Notes under the pieces: model-generated
The model's database searches: none
Seen by the model: the letters and a program-made list of their open reading frames with translations, nothing else
Told to the model about the DNA's origin: nothing
Translations under genes and position numbers: made by a program
Source: Candidatus Saccharimonadota bacterium
GTDB lineage: Bacteria > Patescibacteriota > Gracilibacteria > UBA4473
Reading direction: 5' to 3'
Length of the DNA: 32,000 bases
Assembly (NCBI GenBank): GCA_963677105.1
Contig: OY781871.1
Coordinates: forward strand, 780,001-812,000
Part shown: piece by piece, positions 9,720-28,480 of the stretch
Layout: every line of letters begins with the position of its first letter
Position numbering within the stretch: the first letter of the stretch is position 1

Positions 9720-11012
9720 TTATTTTTCTTGAATAGGAATTTCAAATGGAATGTTTTCTGGTGCAGTTGGAATTGGATCAGCCTTTTGCATTGGAAATGA
9801 AGTCGTTTCTTCGGTTGGAAATTTAAGTTCTTCAAGAGTTACTTTTCGAATATCTGTTTTCTCAATATGAAGACGACGTTCTTGCCAATCTGCAACAATT
9901 CTCAATGCATGAGATTGGATTTCCGGAACAGATTTTCCTTCTATAAGAAGATCAAATCCGTGAAGAACACTTTCTATTTTTCCTTCAAACATATTTGCTA
10001 AAGAATCCAAAGATATATCATTTGCTGTGCGGACTTGAATAAGCGCATTTCCCTCTTTTTCTACAAAAGAGATGACAATGTCTGCTCCATTAATATGTCG
10101 AATAAGTTGATCAGACCAACCATCAAGATCATGAAATGTTGTTTCAGTGAGTTCGAAATCTGAAGCGGTTAAATTTGTCCATGCTAAATGATGTACAGAA
10201 TCGAATTGCAGATTTCCTAAAAGACGTCCGAGAACCCGAAGATTGGCAAACGATTTTTGTTTAAATAAAGACTCAATTACATCGGACTGATTTGCTCCAC
10301 GAGATTGAAGTTCTGCGGCTAATTCAAGAGATCGCGCGCTCGTATTTGATGCGAGAAAACTATCAGTTGCAGCAAGGATTCCAGAAAGTAATGTCGTAGA
10401 AAGATCTGCATCAAGATGTTTTTCGAAATCTGGATCAGAAGTGATGAAGTCAGTGATAAGTTCACATACAGCACTTGCAGAAGAATCAACGAAATTTACT
10501 CGTCCAAAAAATTCATTTGCTGGAGAAACAGAAATATTAATTATAGGAGTTTCAGAAAAAAGTTTTGGATGATCAGTAAATAATTTTTCACAATCTTCTA
10601 ATGCATCTGCACCAACGACAACAATTACATCAAATCGTTCAAGATGATGTCGAAAACTTAATTCAGAAGGATCAATAGTTCCGTCTGTTTGTAAAACCAA
10701 ATCAACAACGCCGTCATGTTCAGTAGCGTGAACATTTTTAATTTTTGTAGATTTCGTAGGAATAGAGATAACAAAATCATTTCCTGTTCCTAATGTTTGA
10801 GAAACGGCATCAGAATTTGGTAAAAAGTGTAATTGACGAGGAACAGTTTCTGGGGCAACCGCAATGGAAGTTTTTCCAGATTTTTTTAAAACAGTATTGA
10901 GAGCAAGAACTCCAGCTGCCACATCAGAATCCCAGTGATTTGGGCCAATGATGAGGATTTCCTTCGCTTGTTTGAGAAGTCCGAGTACTTGCTTTTGAGG
11001 GGGTTTATGCAT
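9720..11012 (-). CDS. DHH/DHHA1-family (NrnA-like) phosphoesterase homolog with degenerate catalytic motifs and a C-terminal extension
   Basis: Collinear with NrnA-type proteins. Motif I region ILIIGPNHWDSDVAAG. VDSSASAVCELI matches the conserved VDTSASS(V/T)xE block. GILAATDSF aligns to GIxGDTGxF. The DHH triad position reads ISVSP and no GGGH motif is visible. Confidence 0.55.
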   Translation of the reverse strand: MHKPPQKQVLGLLKQAKEILIIGPNHWDSDVAAGVLALNTVLKKSGKTSIAVAPETVPRQLHFLPNSDAVSQTLGTGNDFVISIPTKSTKIKNVHATEHDGVVDLVLQTDGTIDPSELSFRHHLERFDVIVVVGADALEDCEKLFTDHPKLFSETPIINISVSPANEFFGRVNFVDSSASAVCELITDFITSDPDFEKHLDADLSTTLLSGILAATDSFLASNTSARSLELAAELQSRGANQSDVIESLFKQKSFANLRVLGRLLGNLQFDSVHHLAWTNLTASDFELTETTFHDLDGWSDQLIRHINGADIVISFVEKEGNALIQVRTANDISLDSLANMFEGKIESVLHGFDLLIEGKSVPEIQSHALRIVADWQERRLHIEKTDIRKVTLEELKFPTEETTSFPMQKADPIPTAPENIPFEIPIQEK

Positions 11013-12508: not shown

Positions 12509-12536
12509 TTGCATATTTTTGTTTTTTGCGTACACT
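12509..12536 (+). promoter_or_regulatory. candidate promoter for the secreted CTD protein gene
   Basis: TTGCAT (12509-12514), 16-nt spacer, TACACT (12531-12536). The roughly 32-nt leader carries AGGAG at 12559-12563. Confidence 0.3.
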
Positions 12537-12568
12537 CGGCTCGCTCTTTGACGGAATCAGGAGACCAT

Positions 12569-13321
12569 ATGGTTCAAAAACTCATAATAGTTCTGTTTCT
12601 GTTTCTTTCAGCGCAATTATTTGCGCAAGATGGAGCAGATCTATTTTTTCAAAATCCCTATCTCGAAAACGAAGGGCACAATTATGTGACCATCTCCACA
12701 GAGATAGAGTTGACAGTCGAACACTGTCTGGTAAATGCGGATACATTATCATGGCGCGTAGGTGTGTCATACTATTATTCGTCATTACCAGAACCAACAT
12801 CGGAAGCTGTTCTTTTGGGAGAAGACCATTCATCTCTCGGGAATGGCGTTGATTACGAAATGGAGTCTGCTTATTTGCAGATTCCAGAAAATGCTCTCTT
12901 AGGGGTCGGATATATCCTTATTGTATCCGATCAAAATGGGATATATTCCCATCTTGAGCAAAATCTCGAAAATAATACTTTCCCTTTACCCATCTGGGTA
13001 AATGAGGAAAACAACGTTAACGTCGCACAACAGGATATTGAAGGAATAGACACTTCGGTGTTTGTTTATCCAAATCCTGTTGGATCAGGAAATCAGCTTA
13101 ACATTGAGTTGATTGCAAATAAGAACCATCGTTCATCAAACAACTCGGCTTTTGCCGTGACAATGGTAAATATTAAAGGGCAAGTAGTAGACAAATACTA
13201 TGGCTCGAGTGGTCAAATGGTAGCGTCTTTAGACGTTAGTCATCTATCATCGGGCACGTATTTTCTACGTGTGTCCGACGGGAACACCTTCACTAACAAG
13301 AAAGTAGTTCTCGTAAAATAA
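12569..13321 (+). CDS. secreted protein with an N-terminal signal peptide and a C-terminal T9SS-type (Por secretion tail) sorting domain
   Basis: The start at ATG 12569 is preceded by AGGAG. Signal peptide MVQKLIIVLFLFLSAQLFA/QDG. The C-terminus VFVYPNPVGSGNQLNIEL...LDVSHLSSGTYFLRVSDGNTFTNKKVVLVK matches the YPNP...G(V/T)YF(L/V)R...K(L/V)V pattern of type A CTDs. Confidence 0.75.
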   Translation: MVQKLIIVLFLFLSAQLFAQDGADLFFQNPYLENEGHNYVTISTEIELTVEHCLVNADTLSWRVGVSYYYSSLPEPTSEAVLLGEDHSSLGNGVDYEMESAYLQIPENALLGVGYILIVSDQNGIYSHLEQNLENNTFPLPIWVNEENNVNVAQQDIEGIDTSVFVYPNPVGSGNQLNIELIANKNHRSSNNSAFAVTMVNIKGQVVDKYYGSSGQMVASLDVSHLSSGTYFLRVSDGNTFTNKKVVLVK

Positions 13322-16129: not shown

Positions 16130-17041
16130 TTACTTTCGGTGATCTACTAAGTTTTTCCAAGTAACTAATAATGGAGCAGCAATAAATATTGATGAATATG
16201 TTCCCACAACAATACCAATCGTTAACGCAAGCATAAAGTAGAAGATAGAACTTGCTCCAAAGAGAAGGAGAAAAATCAAAGGAAAGAGTGTTGAAATAGA
16301 AGTGTTTATAGACCTTCGTAATGTTTGTTGTACAGATTTTTCAATCACATCTTCGAATGTTTCTTTTGATTTTTGTTTATTCAAATTTTCACGAACACGA
16401 TCCAAAATTACAATGGTATCATTCACTGAAAATCCAAGAGTTGCGAGTAACGCAGTAATGAATTGTAGATCCAGTTCTACGTCTGCAATAGCACCAAGAA
16501 CAGCAAATACTCCAACAATGATTAATACATCGTGGAAAAGTGCGATAATTGCTACTCCACCAAAACGCCAAGGATTAATAGTTTCTGGAATTTTTCGAAA
16601 AGCAAGAGCCACGAATAAAACAATTGCCACAAGTGCTAAACCAATAGCAATAAGTGCCTCACGTTGAAAGTGTTTTCCAATAGAATTACTTACACGGCGA
16701 AAAGAAGTGATTTCGAACGTACCTATTTCCTTCTTTAAATTTGTTGAAAGAGTTTCAAATTTTGATTCACTTAATTCTTCAAGTGTTATTAAAAAGCTAT
16801 TATCTCCAGATGATTGAATAATTGCTTCTTTTTCTAGTAATTCACTGGTTTCAAAAAACGTAGTGAGTTGTTCAGTTGCAACAGGTGTGGCTGAGTCAAA
16901 TTGAACATTCAAACGAAGTCCACCAAGAAAGTCGAGTCCTAAATTGAAGCCGAAGATTCCAACCATTGCAAGTGATGCTGCAACAAGTCCACTAGAAATA
17001 GTGATCCATGTTTTTCGATGTCGAGTTATATTGAATTTCAT
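16130..17041 (-). CDS. secF: protein translocase subunit SecF
   Basis: LGLDFLGG motif, a short periplasmic domain and a C-terminal TM bundle. Its ATG overlaps the secD TGA (ATGA). Confidence 0.92.
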   Translation of the reverse strand: MKFNITRHRKTWITISSGLVAASLAMVGIFGFNLGLDFLGGLRLNVQFDSATPVATEQLTTFFETSELLEKEAIIQSSGDNSFLITLEELSESKFETLSTNLKKEIGTFEITSFRRVSNSIGKHFQREALIAIGLALVAIVLFVALAFRKIPETINPWRFGGVAIIALFHDVLIIVGVFAVLGAIADVELDLQFITALLATLGFSVNDTIVILDRVRENLNKQKSKETFEDVIEKSVQQTLRRSINTSISTLFPLIFLLLFGASSIFYFMLALTIGIVVGTYSSIFIAAPLLVTWKNLVDHRK

Positions 17042-19152
17042 TTTTTTGAAGAGTTTTTAGAAACACCGAAGAGAATCGGATTGTTCAATAATTTACATTT
17101 CAGAGAGAGTCGCAATAAATTACGTGAAATTATTACGGCAGTGAACATTGAAAGAAGAGTTCCTACAATTAGTGTAATAGCAAATCCACGGATCATTGCA
17201 CTTCCTAAATTATACAAAATCAAACAGGTGATAAGCGTTGTAATATTTGAATCCCGAATTGCTGTCCATGCACGATCAAACCCGAGTTCAATTGATTCCC
17301 AAAGAGATCGTCCGTCTTTCAGTTCTTCTTGTACTCTTTCAAATATTAAAATATTTCCATCAACAGCAAGTCCGATTGATAATGCAATACCAGCCATTCC
17401 AGAAAGAGAAACCACAACTGGTCCACCAAAAGATTCTGGCCAGAATTTTAGAATGAAAATGTAGAGCCCAGTGTAGAGCAGCAATGCAATTGCGGCAATA
17501 ACTCCGGCAAATCTATATGAAGCAATCATAAATAACATAGTTGCTAACAATCCGAGTGCTCCAGCATAAATACTTCGATTTAATTGGTCTTTTCCGAGAG
17601 ACGGTTCAATAGTTATTTGTCCAGCTAATTTTACTGGTGCATCAATTGCCCCGAGATTTAATCCATCAGATAATTCTTTTGCACTGTCGAATGTGAAATT
17701 TCCGGAAATCTGAGCCGAAGTTCCAATGATCTTTTTTCGTACAGTTGGAGTAGTAATCCATACTCCACCAACTTTAATTCCTAATCTACAAACACCATCT
17801 TTACATGTTCGAGAAGCAACATCTTCTGTTATTTCCGCAAACATATCTCCTCCTTCTTTGTTGAAGAGTAAATTTACAATTGGTTGTCCGATTTCATCAA
17901 ATCCAACAACAGAATTTTCCATTTGTGCTCCTCCGAGACTTGTTTTTCTCCAACCAAGTTCGCTTCGATCCCAACCAAGTAATTCATATCCGACACGTGG
18001 TTCAGAAGAAGTTTCAGTGTGTTCAGGATTGATTGATAACACTTCAATAACGTGAAATCCAAATTCACTTTCAACGATATGATCAATAAGTTTTGGTTCC
18101 GTTGTAGCAAAAACAGCTTCATCAAATTCTTTTACCATTTGACCAGGAGAAAATGTTCCTAAATTTCCACCAGATTCTTGGGCAGCACCTTCTGTAGAAA
18201 ACTCTTTCGCGAGATCTTCAAAAGATTCTGTTCCTTCAGACTGCAAGCGTTGTAACATTTTTTCCGCTTCTACTCGTGCCATTTTTTCATCTTCATACTT
18301 CACGTCTTTATCTGCACGAGATGCACCAGGAAATCCAAATAAAATGTGTCGAGCAGTAGCTTTTGCTGGAATTGTTTTTTCGCGTGTTTCCTGTGTATTT
18401 GAAGTAATTTTTACGATAGCCAAAAGTGGACGTGGCATACTTTTAATTTGCATTTGTCCATTTTCATCGACGGTATATTCAAGTTCAGTTTGTGTCTCAA
18501 CTAAATCAGGTAAAATAGTATTTGCACGTGCAGATAATAACGTTTCCTTAATATTTGGATCATGAATTTCATCAGACCATCGTGGTTCAAATATTTGATG
18601 AATAATCTTTTTTCCATCAGCCAATTCTTTTACACGACGATCCCAATTACTATTGTTAATGGTTCGTTGTTGTTGACGAATTTCTGATCGAACGAGCTCT
18701 TCCATAGCTGGATCTTCTGCGAAAAACTCAAGACGATTGTCTCGTTCAGCATCTTTTTTTGCTTGAATAACGTTTGAGCTTGGTGGCATTTGAATCAACA
18801 CATGTTGTTCATCATCGATTTGAGATCGTTTTACCAAAATTTCTCCCACACCAGCAGGATTTACGCGTTGTTCTAGAGCATCTCGAACAGATTCTGCAAT
18901 AGATTCTAAATTCACATCATTTTGAGGATCGTCATCATTATTTTGTGCGATCGCATCAGAAAGATCGATTTTGTAATCGAGTTCAGTTCCTCCAGCGAGG
19001 TCCAAACCAAGTGTTACCTTGTAGTTCTGCATTTTATTTCCAAACCAATTATCGCCCCATGTTTTTTCGGGAACGGCAAATATCACAGCAAGAAGGGTGC
19101 AGAAACCTACGAGTGCGACTCGAGACCAAGATTTTTTATTCATATAAGACAT
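17038..19152 (-). CDS. secD: protein translocase subunit SecD with an inserted parvulin-type peptidyl-prolyl isomerase domain
   Basis: N-terminal TM helix, LGLDLAGG and RVNPAGVGE, a C-terminal TM bundle with the GLAVDGNILIFER motif, plus an internal ARHILF...GGNLGTFSPGQMVKEFDEAVF...FGFHVIEV rotamase signature at aa 262-374. Confidence 0.9.
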   Translation of the reverse strand: MSYMNKKSWSRVALVGFCTLLAVIFAVPEKTWGDNWFGNKMQNYKVTLGLDLAGGTELDYKIDLSDAIAQNNDDDPQNDVNLESIAESVRDALEQRVNPAGVGEILVKRSQIDDEQHVLIQMPPSSNVIQAKKDAERDNRLEFFAEDPAMEELVRSEIRQQQRTINNSNWDRRVKELADGKKIIHQIFEPRWSDEIHDPNIKETLLSARANTILPDLVETQTELEYTVDENGQMQIKSMPRPLLAIVKITSNTQETREKTIPAKATARHILFGFPGASRADKDVKYEDEKMARVEAEKMLQRLQSEGTESFEDLAKEFSTEGAAQESGGNLGTFSPGQMVKEFDEAVFATTEPKLIDHIVESEFGFHVIEVLSINPEHTETSSEPRVGYELLGWDRSELGWRKTSLGGAQMENSVVGFDEIGQPIVNLLFNKEGGDMFAEITEDVASRTCKDGVCRLGIKVGGVWITTPTVRKKIIGTSAQISGNFTFDSAKELSDGLNLGAIDAPVKLAGQITIEPSLGKDQLNRSIYAGALGLLATMLFMIASYRFAGVIAAIALLLYTGLYIFILKFWPESFGGPVVVSLSGMAGIALSIGLAVDGNILIFERVQEELKDGRSLWESIELGFDRAWTAIRDSNITTLITCLILYNLGSAMIRGFAITLIVGTLLSMFTAVIISRNLLRLSLKCKLLNNPILFGVSKNSSKK

Positions 19153-21564: not shown

Positions 21565-21672
21565 ATGGATAAAAAATCATCACCTTCAGTAAAAGAGCAA
21601 TTGCTTGTGTTGGCAGAATTTAATCGTTTGCTAAAAGAGCGTATTGCTGAGCTTAAAAAAGCAAAACAATGA
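21565..21672 (+). CDS. 35-aa helical peptide, translationally coupled to the 680-aa ORF
   Basis: MDKKSSPSVKEQLLVLAEFNRLLKERIAELKKAKQ. Its TGA overlaps the next ATG (ATGA at 21669-21672). Too short to appear in the ORF track. Confidence 0.35.
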   Translation: MDKKSSPSVKEQLLVLAEFNRLLKERIAELKKAKQ

Positions 21673-23711
21673 GTCCTGAAACAAACGCTAATATGCCAGA
21701 CAATTTAGAATCTTCAGTAGATATTGCTGAGGAGACAAATTCTGCTTTGAGCGATCTTGCGGCAGATGTTTTGCAGCCGCTAACGGATGTTCCAGCAAAA
21801 ATTGAAGCGATAAAACAAGAAACAGGACAGGACTTAGAGAAGTTACAACAAGAAATATTGGATACAGCTATCGCAGATACAAAAAAGAATATTGAGGAAT
21901 ATTCACAAAAAATGGAAGGACTTACTGAGGCAGAAAAAATAACAGAAGCAGAGTTGTATGAATTATTGCAAAAAGCAATGGAGACGGCGATTGGTTCTAC
22001 AGAAGAACTTGCGAAATATTCGACACTTCTTGGATTAAAACAAATTTCAGGTATAGCGGAATTAGCAGGGAAAGATGATGATATATATTTGGACGAAGAA
22101 GAAATGCTTCAGTCTACATACGATGAAAATGTTGATCCACATACACAATTGGATTCACATGTTTTGAGTGTATTTAGTGAGTATTCTAGTGAAATGGAAG
22201 CGGTTACATCTCCAGAAGAGTTGAAAACATTCCTTCTTGAAAAGTGGGATGAAGTGAGAACTTTACTCGTGCAAAAATACGCACCCAAAACAGAAAAAAC
22301 TGCACATGAAACATCTATGAAAATGGGTGATGAAGGAATGATGGCGGGATTACAAGGTTTGATTTCTCAAGTTCCAGGAAATCACACAGAACTTGATAAA
22401 TTTTACAATGCAATCGCTTTTGTAGGAGGATTTGTAGATGATGGAGAATATGTAGATAGAGATGGACGACTGAATGAAGCAAAAGCAGATCAAGCTATTC
22501 GAACACAGATTGATTTGATTTGTGAGAAAGCAACGCCAGAGACGTTTAATGAATATAAAGAGGCAACAAAAGAACTTACTAAAACTCAGCAAAATGAGAA
22601 AAAGGAAACATTGTTGAAGTCTATTCCCGAGAACTTTCAGGGAAGTGAGTTTGAAAGAAAATATACGGTTTATATTGAACAATCATTTATAAATAAAAAC
22701 TGGATCCCAAAAGGATTTGATGAATGGCTTGTGGAACGTCCAAAACCAGGAGGAATTGGTGGAATGCTTGATTCTTTGAAAGTTTTAATTGCTCAATCTG
22801 GACTTGGTAAATTTTTCAAAGATATTTTTGGAAAAGGATCTTGGATTGGATCGCTTTTGGGGTATGGAGAGAAAAAAGAAGACAAAAAAGAAGTAGCTGA
22901 AGGAGAAGAAAAACCAGAAGAAAAAAAGAAAAGAATAGAAAAAGAAGATAAAATTATTGAAGAACTTCAAGAGCCGTCAAAATGGGATGATGTGAATATT
23001 TCTGGTATAAAGAAAAAAGATTTTTTGGGCACAGGTACAGAACTATCTGAAGAAAATAGAAAACATTTAGAAATTCTTCAAAAAGCTTTAAACGCAACAC
23101 CGGGAACAATTTTAGCTGTTGCAAGAACAAAAGGATTAACAATTGAAAGCATAAAAACACTCGATGAAATGGGAGAAAAAGTAATATTTTCTGCAGAGAA
23201 CGAATCATTTACTATTAAAGGGGATTTAGATAAAACCCCATATGAATTGAATGATACGGATATTACAAAAGCAAAAGAGGTTGTTCCGAAAGATGATATT
23301 GAAGCAATTTTAGGAAAAGACTTTGCAAAGAGATTTGACGTGGAGAAACTTCCTGATGGATTGTTCAAATCAGGAGAGAAAACTTCAGATAATTTACATA
23401 AATCAGTGCAATATTTATTAAAACTTCCTAATACGGTGTGGGGAAAATATAAATTTACTGAAAAAGATTGCGAGCTTCTTGCAGAAAAGATTAAGAGTGG
23501 AGCGATTCATGAAGACCTTTTCATATTGGATAGGGACAATGATTTTGATGTATTACAGGCTGATGGTACTACAAAAGAGGTTGATCGTAAGACGAAAAGG
23601 GATGTTATACAGATAGATGGGACAACAAATAAGTGGGCATTTTGGGATCCTTGGGATGTTCGAGTGGAAAATATAGAAACACTTATGGCTTGGTTAAAAC
23701 ACAATATCTAA
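21669..23711 (+). CDS. large acidic hypothetical protein (680 aa) with a central glycine-rich amphipathic segment
   Basis: Long clean ORF. No signal peptide and no known motif. Coiled-coil-like acidic N-terminal half, GGIGGMLDSLKVLIAQSGLGKFFKDIFGKGSWIGSLLGYG at aa 361-400, then a Lys/Glu-rich linker. Confidence 0.7.
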   Translation: MSPETNANMPDNLESSVDIAEETNSALSDLAADVLQPLTDVPAKIEAIKQETGQDLEKLQQEILDTAIADTKKNIEEYSQKMEGLTEAEKITEAELYELLQKAMETAIGSTEELAKYSTLLGLKQISGIAELAGKDDDIYLDEEEMLQSTYDENVDPHTQLDSHVLSVFSEYSSEMEAVTSPEELKTFLLEKWDEVRTLLVQKYAPKTEKTAHETSMKMGDEGMMAGLQGLISQVPGNHTELDKFYNAIAFVGGFVDDGEYVDRDGRLNEAKADQAIRTQIDLICEKATPETFNEYKEATKELTKTQQNEKKETLLKSIPENFQGSEFERKYTVYIEQSFINKNWIPKGFDEWLVERPKPGGIGGMLDSLKVLIAQSGLGKFFKDIFGKGSWIGSLLGYGEKKEDKKEVAEGEEKPEEKKKRIEKEDKIIEELQEPSKWDDVNISGIKKKDFLGTGTELSEENRKHLEILQKALNATPGTILAVARTKGLTIESIKTLDEMGEKVIFSAENESFTIKGDLDKTPYELNDTDITKAKEVVPKDDIEAILGKDFAKRFDVEKLPDGLFKSGEKTSDNLHKSVQYLLKLPNTVWGKYKFTEKDCELLAEKIKSGAIHEDLFILDRDNDFDVLQADGTTKEVDRKTKRDVIQIDGTTNKWAFWDPWDVRVENIETLMAWLKHNI

Positions 23712-27283: not shown

Positions 27284-28369
27284 TTAAGCAGCTTTTTTGT
27301 GCTCAGATCGTTGTTGATTGTGTTGAGAACGATGTTGTATTTTTTCCCCATTATTTCCGTTTAATCCACCAAAATTTTGTGTTAAATCTTGTAGTTCTTT
27401 TAATATGTTTGTATAAGCACTTCCTTTTTCTCGTAAGAGAACCTTTTCTTCTTGAATTTTTTTCTCAAGTTTTCCAATTTCTTCTTGGAATGATTTTATG
27501 TTTTTCTTATGAAATTCTACAAAAGCTACAATATCGCGTTTCACTTGTTTTACAGCTTCCATTGGATCTTTGTCATCGCTTGACGCAACTTTTTGAGGCT
27601 CAGCAATTTGAGATTGTTTTTCCTTTTGAGAATCTTCCATAACAGGTTTTGATATTGGTGCAGAAAAAGGATTTTCAGAAGTCGCAGGTTTTTTCTCTTC
27701 TTTCTTTTCTTCTGGTTTAGAAGTAAACGGTTTCACAATTGGGATTTTTTTTGCAAGATCTTCTTCTTTTGGTTCTTCTGTTACTGGTGTATTAGAAGGA
27801 AGAGATGGAATTATAGGTTTTGATGAAACCTCGTTTGTTCGGGGTTCTTCTTTCTTTTCTTCGAGCGTAGGTGTTGTTGGTCCAGCAAATGGATTTGCTG
27901 GGGCTTTTACCTCAGGTTTCTCATCAGAATTTTCTTTTTGAACTGGTTCAATGATTGGATTAACTGGGGCAGCAATTTCTGGTGTTTTTGTTTCTTCTGG
28001 TTTTGGTAATTCAGTTTCAATTTTTTCAACGGGAGTTTCTGCTGGAGCTGGCGCAGAAAAGGGATTCGCTGGAGCTTCAATATTTTTTTCTTCAACGGTA
28101 GTAGGTGTCGAGGGAACAATTGGTTCAGGAGTAGGAACTTCTACAGTTGGAGTTTCACTTTTATTTTCAGAAACTACTTCTGGAGCAGGTTTTACTTCTT
28201 CTTTCATCGGTGCAGTTACCGGTGGAACTACGGGAGTTTTTGGTGTTTCGACTGGAGCAGAAACAGAATTTTCATTTGTAGTTGAGTTATCCTGCGTTAT
28301 TACTGGATCAGTTGCTGAACCATTTCCTTGAGCATTATTTGCACCGAGACCGAAATTAAAATTAACCAT
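27284..28369 (-). CDS. Pro/Glu/Thr/Lys-rich low-complexity protein with repeated NPF motifs and a C-terminal coiled coil
   Basis: Start trimmed to ATG 28369 (MVNFNFGLG...). Recurring APANPFSAP, APANPFAGP and SENPFSAPISKP motifs. C-terminal helix VKRDIVAFVEFHKKNIKSFQEEIGKLEKKIQEEK. Confidence 0.65.
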   Translation of the reverse strand: MVNFNFGLGANNAQGNGSATDPVITQDNSTTNENSVSAPVETPKTPVVPPVTAPMKEEVKPAPEVVSENKSETPTVEVPTPEPIVPSTPTTVEEKNIEAPANPFSAPAPAETPVEKIETELPKPEETKTPEIAAPVNPIIEPVQKENSDEKPEVKAPANPFAGPTTPTLEEKKEEPRTNEVSSKPIIPSLPSNTPVTEEPKEEDLAKKIPIVKPFTSKPEEKKEEKKPATSENPFSAPISKPVMEDSQKEKQSQIAEPQKVASSDDKDPMEAVKQVKRDIVAFVEFHKKNIKSFQEEIGKLEKKIQEEKVLLREKGSAYTNILKELQDLTQNFGGLNGNNGEKIQHRSQHNQQRSEHKKAA

Positions 28370-28410
28370 TTTTATGTGTTTTTTTGTGTCAATAAAACTC
28401 GAGAGAAAAC

Positions 28411-28439
28411 TTGACTTTTTATGACTATTTCGCAATATT
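28411..28439 (+). promoter_or_regulatory. candidate pheS promoter
   Basis: TTGACT (28411-28416), 17-nt spacer, AATATT (28434-28439), about 40 nt upstream of the ATG at 28481. Confidence 0.3.
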
Positions 28440-28480
28440 CTACCGGAAAATCCATCTTCAATCAAGTCTTTTTATTGCGA

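What the first reader, a model, noticed from the sequence alone, without database searches (positions are those of the whole stretch)
18031..18369. Parvulin PPIase (PrsA/SurA-like) domain nested inside the periplasmic P1 loop of SecD
The 704-aa secD ORF (17038-19152) has normal SecD ends: an N-terminal TM helix, LGLDLAGG and RVNPAGVGE P1-base motifs, the post-P1 block (IGQPIVNLLFNKEGGDMFAEIT...ISGNFTFDSAKELSDGLNLGA), a C-terminal TM bundle, and an ATGA overlap with secF. About 250 additional residues (aa ~145-400) lie between the P1-base elements. Their core (aa 262-374) reads ARHILFGFPG...FEDLAKEFSTEGAAQESGGNLGTFSPGQMVKEFDEAVFATTEPKLIDHIVESEFGFHVIEV. That is the HIL / GG-x-LG / FG-x-H-(V/I)-I signature of PpiC/PrsA/SurA rotamases. 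The ORF is uninterrupted across both junctions. In other bacteria the foldases that receive chains leaving SecYEG (PpiD, PrsA, SurA) are separate proteins. Here a prolyl isomerase or chaperone would ride on the mobile P1 head that contacts the emerging substrate. I do not know this architecture as characterised.
Basis: partly seen in the sequence, partly recalled or inferred. Interest (0 to 1): 0.7.

Follow-up and report, generated by a model that had tools for sequence, protein, structure and literature searches.

The report
Prolyl isomerase built into SecD
In this small candidate-phyla-radiation bacterium, the protein-export helper SecD carries a conserved, apparently active prolyl-isomerase folding domain spliced into its outward-facing loop, so export and folding sit on one polypeptide; the layout is common in several uncultivated lineages, but I found no paper describing it.

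Summary
secD is a 704-aa ORF at window 17038-19152 on the minus strand, overlapping secF by ATGA. Residues 258-372 match Pfam Rotamase_3 (E 1.3e-22). The match lies between the SecD P1-base (SecD_1st) and P1-head domains, where plain CPR SecDs have 17 residues or fewer.

It is not an assembly artefact. More than 100 independent homologues share the layout, and 65 of the 150 best 50%-identity cluster representatives are full-length SecD or SecDF with a nested parvulin. Named sources are Gracilibacteria, Peregrinibacteria/Peribacterales (as SecDF fusions) and Moranbacteria.

Both catalytic histidines (H269, H367) and two of the three proline-pocket residues (L331, F343) are invariant in 74 relatives; the third, M339, is in 72. 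The AF2 model superposes on Pin1 and PrsA PPIase domains at about 2 Å.

One refinement: the 250-aa insert holds two modules. Residues 148-258 look like a degenerate, circularly permuted parvulin. Covariation suggests the intact parvulin sits in its β4'-β1' hairpin.

The P1 head is kept, so it is decorated rather than replaced. The most likely role is a translocon-tethered, PrsA-like foldase or holdase. I found no paper describing this architecture. Verdict: new variant of a known kind, interest about 0.6.

The parts
17038..19152 (-). secD ORF, 704 aa. The conserved Met is aa 4, so the true start may be 19143.
19075..19137 (-). N-terminal transmembrane helix (aa 6-26). It is preceded by K/K/R residues, which places P1 outside the cytoplasm.
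   Evidence: AF2 DSSP; sequence
18715..19035 (-). P1 base, N-terminal part (aa 40-146). Contains LGLDLAGG and RVNPAGVGE and ends with the LEF strand.
   Evidence: Pfam Sec_GG and SecD_1st; BLASTP to plain CPR SecD
18370..18711 (-). Insert module 1 (aa 148-261). A degenerate parvulin-like body with element order α1'-α2'-β2'-α4'-β3'-β4', no N-terminal β1 and no catalytic His. Its last strand (242-261) runs into a β-ribbon.
   Evidence: AF2 DSSP; hhalign against the parvulin profile, E 6.9e-5, probability 63%; the equivalent region of P0131 and P0147 scores as Pfam Rotamase; covariation
18028..18369 (-). Insert module 2 (aa 262-375). An intact parvulin (PpiC-type) PPIase domain in standard strand order, with H269, S319, E321, L331, M339, F343 and H367.
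   Evidence: Pfam; PDB sequence hits to PrsA and Pin1; conservation; Foldseek TMt 0.84-0.89 at rmsd about 2 Å
17953..18027 (-). Return strand after the parvulin (aa 376-400). Residues about 383-395 covary with 244-256 and with 184-192. It is the inferred displaced β1' that completes module 1.
   Evidence: AF2 DSSP strand 378-395; MI-APC register scans
17617..17952 (-). P1 head plus the return to base (aa 401-512). The head is retained. It contains two conserved cysteines, C450 and C455.
   Evidence: Pfam SecDF_P1_head, profile positions 17-113 of 114; alignment to TtSecDF 159-254
17083..17616 (-). TM2-TM6 bundle (aa 513-690). Includes the invariant D598 in the VDGN motif, which aligns with T. 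thermophilus SecDF D340.
   Evidence: Pfam SecD_SecF_C; alignment; invariance
16130..17041 (-). secF, 303 aa. Its ATG overlaps the secD TGA stop (ATGA).
   Evidence: (SecD_SecF_C, E 6e-56)

Best explanation
This is a genuine SecD whose extracytoplasmic P1 domain carries a roughly 250-residue insert. The insert lies in the short connection between the P1 base (after the LEF strand) and the P1 head.

The insert has two parts. The first is a degenerate, circularly permuted parvulin-like scaffold (aa 148-261 plus the strand at about 383-395). The second is an intact parvulin peptidyl-prolyl isomerase (aa 262-375) at the tip of the scaffold's long β4'-β1' ribbon.

SecD-SecF sits next to the SecYEG exit, and its P1 domain captures emerging chains. 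The fused parvulin is therefore most likely a translocon-tethered, PrsA-like foldase or holdase. It would bind exported polypeptides as they leave the channel and catalyse (or at least chaperone) prolyl-limited folding on the outer face of the membrane of a wall-bearing, monoderm-type CPR cell.

What is shown:
- The architecture, its topology and its spread across CPR lineages.
- The intact active-site residues and the predicted parvulin fold.
- Retention of the P1 head and of the proton-path aspartate.

What is inferred:
- PPIase activity and action on Sec substrates.
- Any coupling to P1 movement.
- Replacement of a separate PrsA.
- The nested, permuted topology of module 1.
For: Architecture:
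- Pfam and NCBIfam hits as in the observation check. The ORF is continuous, with secF overlapping.

Not an artefact:
- All 120 listed homologues from independent NCBI, JGI, ENA and Logan assemblies carry the Rotamase, P1_head and, in all but two truncated entries, SecD_SecF_C domains.
- 65 full-length proteins and 14 fragments among the best 150 50%-identity representatives have a parvulin between the P1 base and head.
- The same layout is found in Moranbacteria and in Peregrinibacteria/Peribacterales SecDF fusions.

Selection:
- H269, H367, S319, L331, F343, F364 and G365 are invariant in 74 of 74 relatives, and M339 in 72 of 74.
- Mean pairwise identity in the parvulin is 53%, against 64-69% for the SecD core and 32% for module 1.

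Fold:
- The full-length AF2 model has pLDDT 84.7 and the insert-only model 90.5.
- Foldseek aligns about 115 columns to the Pin1 and PrsA PPIase domains, with TMt 0.84-0.89 and rmsd 2.0-2.4 Å.

SecD core intact:
- D598 aligns with TtSecDF D340 and is invariant.
- The P1_head profile is covered from position 17 to 113, much as in plain CPR SecDs.

Functional precedent:
- SurA's parvulin domains are modelled on the SecDF P1 head (PMC9987972).
- PrsA-like Mdp proteins form a dome with SecDF at the M. pneumoniae translocon (10.1101/2025.04.25.650208; 10.1101/2024.09.05.611430).
Against: - No activity, substrate or localisation data exist. The organisms are uncultivated.
- The residue at the Pin1 C113 / PrsA Asp position is Glu (E321) and is not universally aligned: E or D in 50 of 74, gapped in 24.
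- A Peregrinibacteria subclade keeps the domain but has lost both histidines and the S-x-D/E loop. Module 1 is also degenerate. In at least some lineages, therefore, catalysis is dispensable and a binding or structural role suffices.
- pTM is only 0.55-0.62 and I had no model coordinates. The position of the active site relative to the SecY exit or the P1 head is unknown.
- The presence or absence of a separate PrsA in this genome was not testable. One survey reports PrsA annotations across CPR classes without saying whether they are stand-alone genes (PMC9166423).
Confidence: 0.62

Rival explanations
1. The insert is a non-catalytic substrate-binding (holdase) extension. The parvulin modules enlarge the polypeptide-binding surface of P1, in the way the inactive parvulin domains of PpiD and SurA-P1 do. 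Prolyl isomerisation plays no role in function.
For: - Module 1 has lost its catalytic residues.
- A Peregrinibacteria SecDF subclade keeps the domain while losing both histidines.
- From background knowledge, PpiD's parvulin and SurA P1 are inactive, and the PPIase activity of B. subtilis PrsA is reported to be dispensable in vivo.
Against: - In the window's lineage and in Moranbacteria the two histidines are invariant (74 of 74 and 119 of 119), and the L and F proline-pocket residues are invariant in the window's lineage with M339 in 72 of 74. This is hard to explain without selection on the active site.
- The parvulin is far better conserved than module 1: 53% against 32%.
Confidence: 0.25
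2. The insert is a structural spacer or docking module for envelope partners. The rigid β-ribbon and domains would serve to reach through or attach to the cell wall or S-layer, or to recruit another machine such as YidC, signal peptidase or the pilus-assembly apparatus, rather than to handle Sec substrates.
For: - The same junction hosts unrelated inserts in other phyla. Bacteroidota SecDF has about 150-200 extra residues there with no parvulin, and E. coli SecD has about 300 residues before the aligned head region.
- Other CPR variants add further unassigned segments.
Against: The conserved residues are the parvulin catalytic and proline-pocket positions, not a novel surface. No partner is indicated by the gene neighbourhood, which is ligA-secD-secF followed by an SNF-family transporter.
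Confidence: 0.08
3. The fusion is an artefact. A chimeric assembly, a frameshift, or misreading of an alternative genetic code (Gracilibacteria code 25) has joined a separate PPIase gene to secD.
For: Homologues are labelled Gracilibacteria, a group known for UGA=Gly recoding. The secD stop codon is TGA.
Against: - The reading frame is uninterrupted across both junctions.
- More than 100 independent assemblies, including contigs of up to about 1.3 Mb, carry the same nested order.
- SecD segments lie on both sides of the insert, which a simple end-to-end join cannot produce.
- No large ORF in the window contains an in-frame TGA, and coding density under table 11 is about 90%.
- Reading through the TGA would add only four residues, GNSI.
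Confidence: 0.01

Closest known systems
SecD/SecDF (T. thermophilus SecDF, PDB 3AQP/5YHF; TIGR01129)
   Same: TM1, then P1 (base plus head), then TM2-6. It has the GG motif, the LEF strand, the P1 head and the TM4 Asp (D598 = Tt D340), with an adjacent secF.
   Different: It carries about 250 extra residues (two parvulin-type modules) at the base-to-head connection. Plain CPR SecDs have 17 or fewer there.
PrsA (Bacillus/Listeria/Staphylococcus extracytoplasmic foldase lipoprotein)
   Same: A parvulin PPIase on the outer face of the membrane of a monoderm-type cell. PrsA PPIase domains are the best sequence and structure matches (6xd8 E 1.2e-12; TMt 0.89).
   Different: There is no lipobox anchor and no NC (SurA/trigger-factor-like) chaperone domain. 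The anchor here is SecD itself. No dimerisation module is evident.
M. pneumoniae 'dome' complex (Mdp444/436/489 with SecDF-SecYEG-SecA)
   Same: PrsA-like parvulin domains are held directly over the Sec exit by association with SecDF. Some copies are catalytically intact and others degenerate.
   Different: There, the proteins are separate large lipoproteins that form a non-covalent heterotrimeric dome. Here, a single-chain fusion lies inside SecD P1. The two are not related in sequence beyond the parvulin fold.
E. coli PpiD-YfgM and SurA at the holo-translocon
   Same: Parvulin-containing chaperones are recruited to the periplasmic side of Sec. AlphaFold models place the SurA P1 and P2 parvulin domains on the SecDF P1 head (PMC9987972; PMC9643414).
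   Different: Those are separate proteins with transient interactions in diderm bacteria, and PpiD's parvulin is inactive. The CPR protein makes the association covalent and stoichiometric.

Membership tests
SecD (NCBIfam TIGR01129; Pfam SecD_1st + SecDF_P1_head + SecD_SecF_C) | Score above the curated family cutoff | tested here: met
   TIGR01129 scores 291.2 bits against a cutoff of 244.4, spanning aa 48-680 over model positions 1-397. P1_head E 2e-16 and SecD_SecF_C E 2.4e-10.
SecD (NCBIfam TIGR01129; Pfam SecD_1st + SecDF_P1_head + SecD_SecF_C) | Topology: N-terminal TM helix, large extracytoplasmic P1, five C-terminal TM helices | tested here: met
   The AF2 model has helix 6-26 and long helices at 518-570, 583-612, 617-649 and 652-685. 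Foldseek matches SecDF 5yhf at E 5.7e-19.
SecD (NCBIfam TIGR01129; Pfam SecD_1st + SecDF_P1_head + SecD_SecF_C) | Conserved TM4 aspartate of the proton pathway (TtSecDF D340) | tested here: met
   D598 in AVDGNILIFER aligns with Tt AVDGNVLSFER. It is invariant in 74 of 74 sequences.
SecD (NCBIfam TIGR01129; Pfam SecD_1st + SecDF_P1_head + SecD_SecF_C) | Partner SecF encoded adjacently or fused | tested here: met
   secF lies at 16130-17041 with an ATGA overlap; SecD_SecF_C E 6e-56.
SecD (NCBIfam TIGR01129; Pfam SecD_1st + SecDF_P1_head + SecD_SecF_C) | PMF-dependent stimulation of Sec translocation | not testable with these tools
   This needs biochemistry or genetics.
Parvulin PPIase (Pfam PF00639/PF13616) | Profile score above the gathering threshold | tested here: met
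   Rotamase_3 scores 81 bits (cutoff 22.5) and Rotamase 67.7 bits (cutoff 21.7).
Parvulin PPIase (Pfam PF00639/PF13616) | Parvulin fold (β1-α1-α2-α3-β2-α4-β3-β4) | tested here: met
   The AF2 elements at 264-375 follow that order. Foldseek to the Pin1 and PrsA PPIase domains gives TMt 0.84-0.89, rmsd 2.0-2.4 Å over about 115 columns. This is a prediction, not an experimental structure.
Parvulin PPIase (Pfam PF00639/PF13616) | Dual catalytic histidines and a hydrophobic proline pocket (Pin1 H59/H157; L122/M130/F134) | tested here: met
   H269 and H367 are present in 74 of 74 sequences, L331 in 74, M339 in 72 and F343 in 74.
Parvulin PPIase (Pfam PF00639/PF13616) | Cys/Asp at the Pin1 C113 position | tested here: inconclusive
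   The window protein has Glu (E321). The column is E or D in 50 of 74 sequences and a gap in 24. The correspondence was judged by eye against the PrsA 'STD' and Pin1 'SDC' motifs.
Parvulin PPIase (Pfam PF00639/PF13616) | Measured cis-trans isomerase activity | not testable with these tools
   This needs an enzyme assay.
PrsA / SurA / PpiD-type foldases | N/C chaperone (SurA_N / trigger-factor-like helical) domain flanking the parvulin | tested here: not met
   No such Pfam family matched the whole protein at E<=0.1 or aa 146-264 alone at E<=1. The flanking module is parvulin-like instead.
PrsA / SurA / PpiD-type foldases | Own membrane anchor (lipobox or N-terminal TM) or a soluble periplasmic protein | tested here: not met
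   The domain is internal to SecD (aa 262-375 of 704) and anchored through the SecD TM helices.

The most novel reading that the evidence does not exclude
In several CPR lineages the only extracytoplasmic prolyl isomerase is built into SecD. Its construction is nested: an active parvulin inserted into the β4-β1 hairpin of a circularly permuted parvulin, which is itself inserted at the hinge of the P1 domain. Because the insert sits on the base-head hinge, the PMF-driven swing of P1 would move the isomerase towards and away from the SecY exit. SecDF would then be a mechanically coupled pull-and-fold machine. The Moranbacteria single-domain form would be a natural, catalytically intact circular permutant of the parvulin fold.
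Probability: 0.2. Interest if true: 0.8.

Novelty: new variant of a known kind. Interest (0 to 1): 0.6.

Why it matters
How chains leaving SecYEG are handed to folding factors is an open question in bacterial secretion. The current evidence is indirect. It comes from PpiD/YfgM cross-links, low-resolution SurA-holotranslocon maps with AlphaFold docking of SurA's parvulin domains on the SecDF P1 head, and the 2025 Mycoplasma dome complex.

A natural covalent fusion of a conserved, apparently active parvulin into SecD P1, fixed across large CPR clades, gives independent Rosetta-stone evidence that SecD-P1 and parvulin foldases work together. It also offers a compact single-chain object for structural and biochemical tests.

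It affects annotation too. These genes are labelled simply 'SecD', or occasionally 'PrsA'. Metabolic surveys that score PrsA presence in CPR may therefore be counting SecD.

The apparent circularly permuted and nested parvulins are of interest for protein-fold evolution.

Tried and rejected
1. Plus-strand reading of the given coordinates gives only stops. The feature is on the minus strand.

2. Code-25 artefact: rejected. There is no in-frame TGA in any large ORF, and read-through of the secD TGA would add only GNSI.

3. Chimeric assembly: rejected on the breadth of independent homologues.

4. The idea that aa 148-258 is a SurA/PrsA-type helical chaperone domain: no Pfam support. The order of secondary-structure elements, hhalign and the homologues all point to a parvulin-like body instead.

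5. Foldseek on the insert-only model could not identify module 1, because every hit was dominated by the intact parvulin.

6. Moving the trailing β1 strand of the Moranbacteria domain back to the front gave only small gains. Pfam rose by 1.8 bits, with coverage extended from profile position 32 to 15. phmmer against PDB did not align the HIL strand to PrsA β1. The permutation therefore rests mainly on the invariant HIL strand after β4 and on covariation in the Gracilibacteria family.

7. Bacteroidota SecDF loci picked up by the genome scan have a long P1 but no parvulin, so the architecture was not found outside CPR.

8. Taxon names for many divergent variants could not be obtained, because most clusters are unnamed.

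9. A genome-wide search for a stand-alone prsA/ppiD/surA was not possible. Only the 32-kb window is held, and it contains no other parvulin.
Full report
**1. Observation**

The window (36% G+C) encodes a 704-aa ORF at 17038..19152 on the minus strand. The plus-strand translation of the reported coordinates is full of stops. On the minus strand, 18031-18369 is exactly aa 262-374.

Pfam gives the following hits on this protein:
- Rotamase_3, E 1.3e-22, aa 258-372.
- Rotamase, E 1.9e-18.
- SecD_1st, aa 89-145, and Sec_GG, on the N-terminal side.
- SecDF_P1_head, aa 402-504, E 2e-16, and SecD_SecF_C, aa 513-681, on the C-terminal side.

NCBIfam TIGR01129 (secD) scores 291 bits, above its cutoff of 244. 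secF follows at 16130..17041, and its ATG overlaps the secD TGA (AAAAAATGAAATTC).

The surrounding genes are housekeeping: rpoB, pyk, serS, ligA, pheS, rpoD and greA.

**2. Organism and genetic code**

Named homologues are 'Candidatus Gracilibacteria'. Some Gracilibacteria read UGA as Gly, so I checked the code.
- Under table 11 the window is about 90% coding.
- No large ORF, including the 1191-aa RpoB, contains an in-frame TGA.
- Only 2 of 24 ORFs end in TGA.
- Reading through the secD TGA would add just four residues.

The code does not affect the finding.

**3. Size and position of the insert**

A plain CPR SecD (Paceibacteria, L008, 443 aa) aligns to window aa 14-148 and 424-680. In L008 and L007 the Pfam SecD_1st and P1_head domains are 17 residues or fewer apart. 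Here they are 256 residues apart.

The P1_head profile is matched from position 17 to 113, much as in the plain proteins. The head is therefore retained and decorated, not replaced. The insert occupies the base-to-head connection just after the LEF strand.

**4. Is it real?**

All 120 listed homologues, down to 35% identity, carry the Rotamase and P1_head domains and, except for two truncated entries, SecD_SecF_C. They come from NCBI, JGI, ENA and Logan assemblies, some on contigs of about 1 Mb or more.

I ran an exhaustive HMMER search of 1.84 billion cluster representatives and annotated the hits with HMMs built from this family. Among the best 150, 65 are full-length SecD or SecDF with a parvulin between the P1 base and head, and 14 more are fragments with one. 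The full-length proteins break down as:
- 43 SecD with a single parvulin.
- 7 SecD with a double parvulin.
- 13 SecDF fusions with a single parvulin.
- 2 SecDF fusions with a double parvulin.

Follow-up searches name two further groups. The approximately 565-aa single-parvulin form belongs to Candidatus Moranbacteria / Parcubacteria group. The approximately 1040-aa SecDF fusions belong to Candidatus Peregrinibacteria / Peribacterales. One Moranbacteria-type protein is auto-annotated as 'foldase protein PrsA precursor'. Bacteroidota SecDF loci found in the genome scan have long P1 domains but no parvulin.

**5. Is the parvulin functional?**

In a 74-sequence alignment the following are invariant: H269 (β1 'HIL'), H367 (β4 'FGxH'), S319, G329, L331, F343, F364 and G365. 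M339 is present in 72 of 74. These correspond to Pin1 H59 and H157 and the L122/M130/F134 proline pocket. The Pin1 C113 / PrsA Asp position is Glu (E321), with E or D in 50 of 74 sequences.

Mean pairwise identity by region:

| Region | Identity |
|---|---|
| Parvulin (aa 259-375) | 53% |
| SecD core regions | 64-69% |
| Module 1 (aa 148-258) | 32% |

The AF2 models are confident (pLDDT 84.7 for the full length and 90.5 for the insert). The domain superposes on the Pin1 and PrsA PPIase domains at rmsd 2.0-2.4 Å over about 115 columns, with TMt up to 0.89. D598 aligns with the TtSecDF proton-path residue D340 and is invariant, so the SecD motor is also intact.

**6. Anatomy of the insert (new here)**

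Residues 148-258 have no Pfam hit. Three lines of evidence suggest they are a parvulin body without β1:
- The AF2 secondary-structure elements follow the parvulin order, α1'-α2'-β2'-α4'-β3'-β4'.
- The family profile aligns to the parvulin profile (hhalign E 6.9e-5, probability 63%).
- The equivalent region of relatives P0131 and P0147 scores as Pfam Rotamase.

In Moranbacteria the single nested parvulin matches Pfam only from profile position 32 onwards. An invariant 'H-I-L' strand follows β4 after a short hairpin, and H237, H257 and D189 are present in 119 of 119 sequences. This is the signature of a circular permutation with β1 moved to the C-terminus.

For the window's family I computed APC-corrected mutual information on 108 sequences (Neff 83).
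- The strand after the intact parvulin (about 383-395) covaries in antiparallel register with 244-256. The peak is at i+j=639, with mean 0.074 and maximum 0.359.
- The same strand covaries with 184-192. The peak is at i+j=577-578, with maximum 0.294.
- The background 99.9th percentile is 0.196.
- The known β1/β4 pairing of the intact parvulin, used as a positive control, peaks at 0.045.

The trailing strand therefore lies between β2' and β4' of module 1, which is the β1 position in a parvulin sheet.

The most economical reading is this. Module 1 is a degenerate, circularly permuted parvulin. The intact parvulin sits at the tip of its elongated β4'-β1' ribbon (AF2 strands 242-261 and 378-395). 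This is an inference, because I had no model coordinates.

**7. Catalysis is not always kept**

A Peregrinibacteria SecDF subclade of about 1013 aa retains the domain but has replaced both histidines and deleted the S-x-D/E loop. This supports a binding or scaffolding contribution that does not depend on catalysis, as in PpiD or SurA P1. It is the main argument for the holdase rival.

**8. Mechanism**

The following is established background (Tsukazaki 2011 and Furukawa 2017, as cited in the papers read). SecDF uses the PMF to swing the P1 head between the F and I forms, and so captures and pulls chains that emerge from SecYEG.

Placing a PrsA-type parvulin on the hinge of that domain puts a foldase or holdase within reach of every emerging chain, at 1:1 stoichiometry. 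This fits CPR cells, which have small genomes and a monoderm-type envelope. PrsA is the essential post-translocational foldase in the Bacillus model.

I give about 0.6 to the catalytic tethered-foldase reading. I give about 0.25 to a purely chaperone or binding role, and less than 0.1 to a structural or docking role.

**9. Literature**

Six full-text searches combined SecD or SecDF with parvulin, PpiC, rotamase, PPIase domain, CPR lineage names and circular permutation. None found a description of a SecD-nested PPIase.

The closest published systems are:
- The M. pneumoniae dome complex, in which PrsA-like Mdp lipoproteins sit on SecDF-SecYEG.
- PpiD-YfgM at SecYEG.
- SurA at the holo-translocon, with AlphaFold placing SurA's parvulin domains on the SecDF P1 head.

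A freshwater-CPR survey lists SecD and PrsA as present across CPR classes and does not mention a fusion. Subscription-only literature was not searchable.

**10. Verdict**

The architecture is real and ancient within CPR, and its active-site residues are invariant in the window's lineage. It is visible in databases but, as far as I could find, undescribed. It is a new variant of known kinds (SecD plus a parvulin foldase), not a new category.

The main unknowns are activity, orientation relative to the Sec exit, coupling to P1 motion, and whether it replaces a stand-alone PrsA.

Noticed in passing
Protein P0139 and 118 relatives (Candidatus Moranbacteria SecD, about 565 aa); not in the window: The single nested parvulin appears circularly permuted. 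Pfam matches only profile positions 32-115. An invariant x-H-I-L strand (H257) follows β4 (F-G-W-H237) after a short hairpin, and H237, H257 and D189 are present in 119 of 119 sequences. No paper combining 'parvulin' and 'circular permutation' was found.
   Followed up: partly
Proteins P0432, P0441, P0453, P0460, P0463, P0467 (Peregrinibacteria-type SecDF, about 1013 aa): This subclade keeps the nested parvulin-sized domain but has lost both catalytic histidines and the S-x-D/E loop. It no longer scores as Pfam Rotamase.
   Followed up: partly
window 12509-13318 (+): A 270-aa ORF has a C-terminal Por_Secre_tail domain (the type IX secretion sorting domain, E 9e-15). This is in a CPR-type genome where a T9SS would not be expected.
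   Followed up: no
window 17788-17805 (-), SecD aa 450-455: Two cysteines in the P1 head (RTCKDGVCR) are conserved in at least 90% of 74 relatives. They may form an extracytoplasmic disulfide.
   Followed up: no
whole window: The closest relatives are labelled Gracilibacteria, yet the window shows no sense use of TGA. No large ORF contains an in-frame TGA, and TGA ends only 2 of 24 ORFs (secD and rpoD). TAA ends 18 of 24.
   Followed up: partly
window 21669-23711 (+), 9720-11012 (-) and 27284-28465 (-): Three large ORFs (680, 430 and 393 aa) have no Pfam match at E<=0.001. The 680-aa protein is acidic and rich in Glu and Lys.
   Followed up: no
Loci L002-L006 (Prolixibacteraceae/Mariniphaga SecDF) and E. 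coli SecD (PDB 5mg3_D): The same P1 base-to-head junction holds about 150-300 extra residues of a different, unassigned kind in other phyla. This junction seems to be a general hot spot for insertions in SecD.
   Followed up: partly
window 19143-19152 (-): The ORF has two in-frame ATGs (aa 1 and aa 4). Met4 is the one conserved in at least 90% of homologues, so the true start may be 19143.
   Followed up: no
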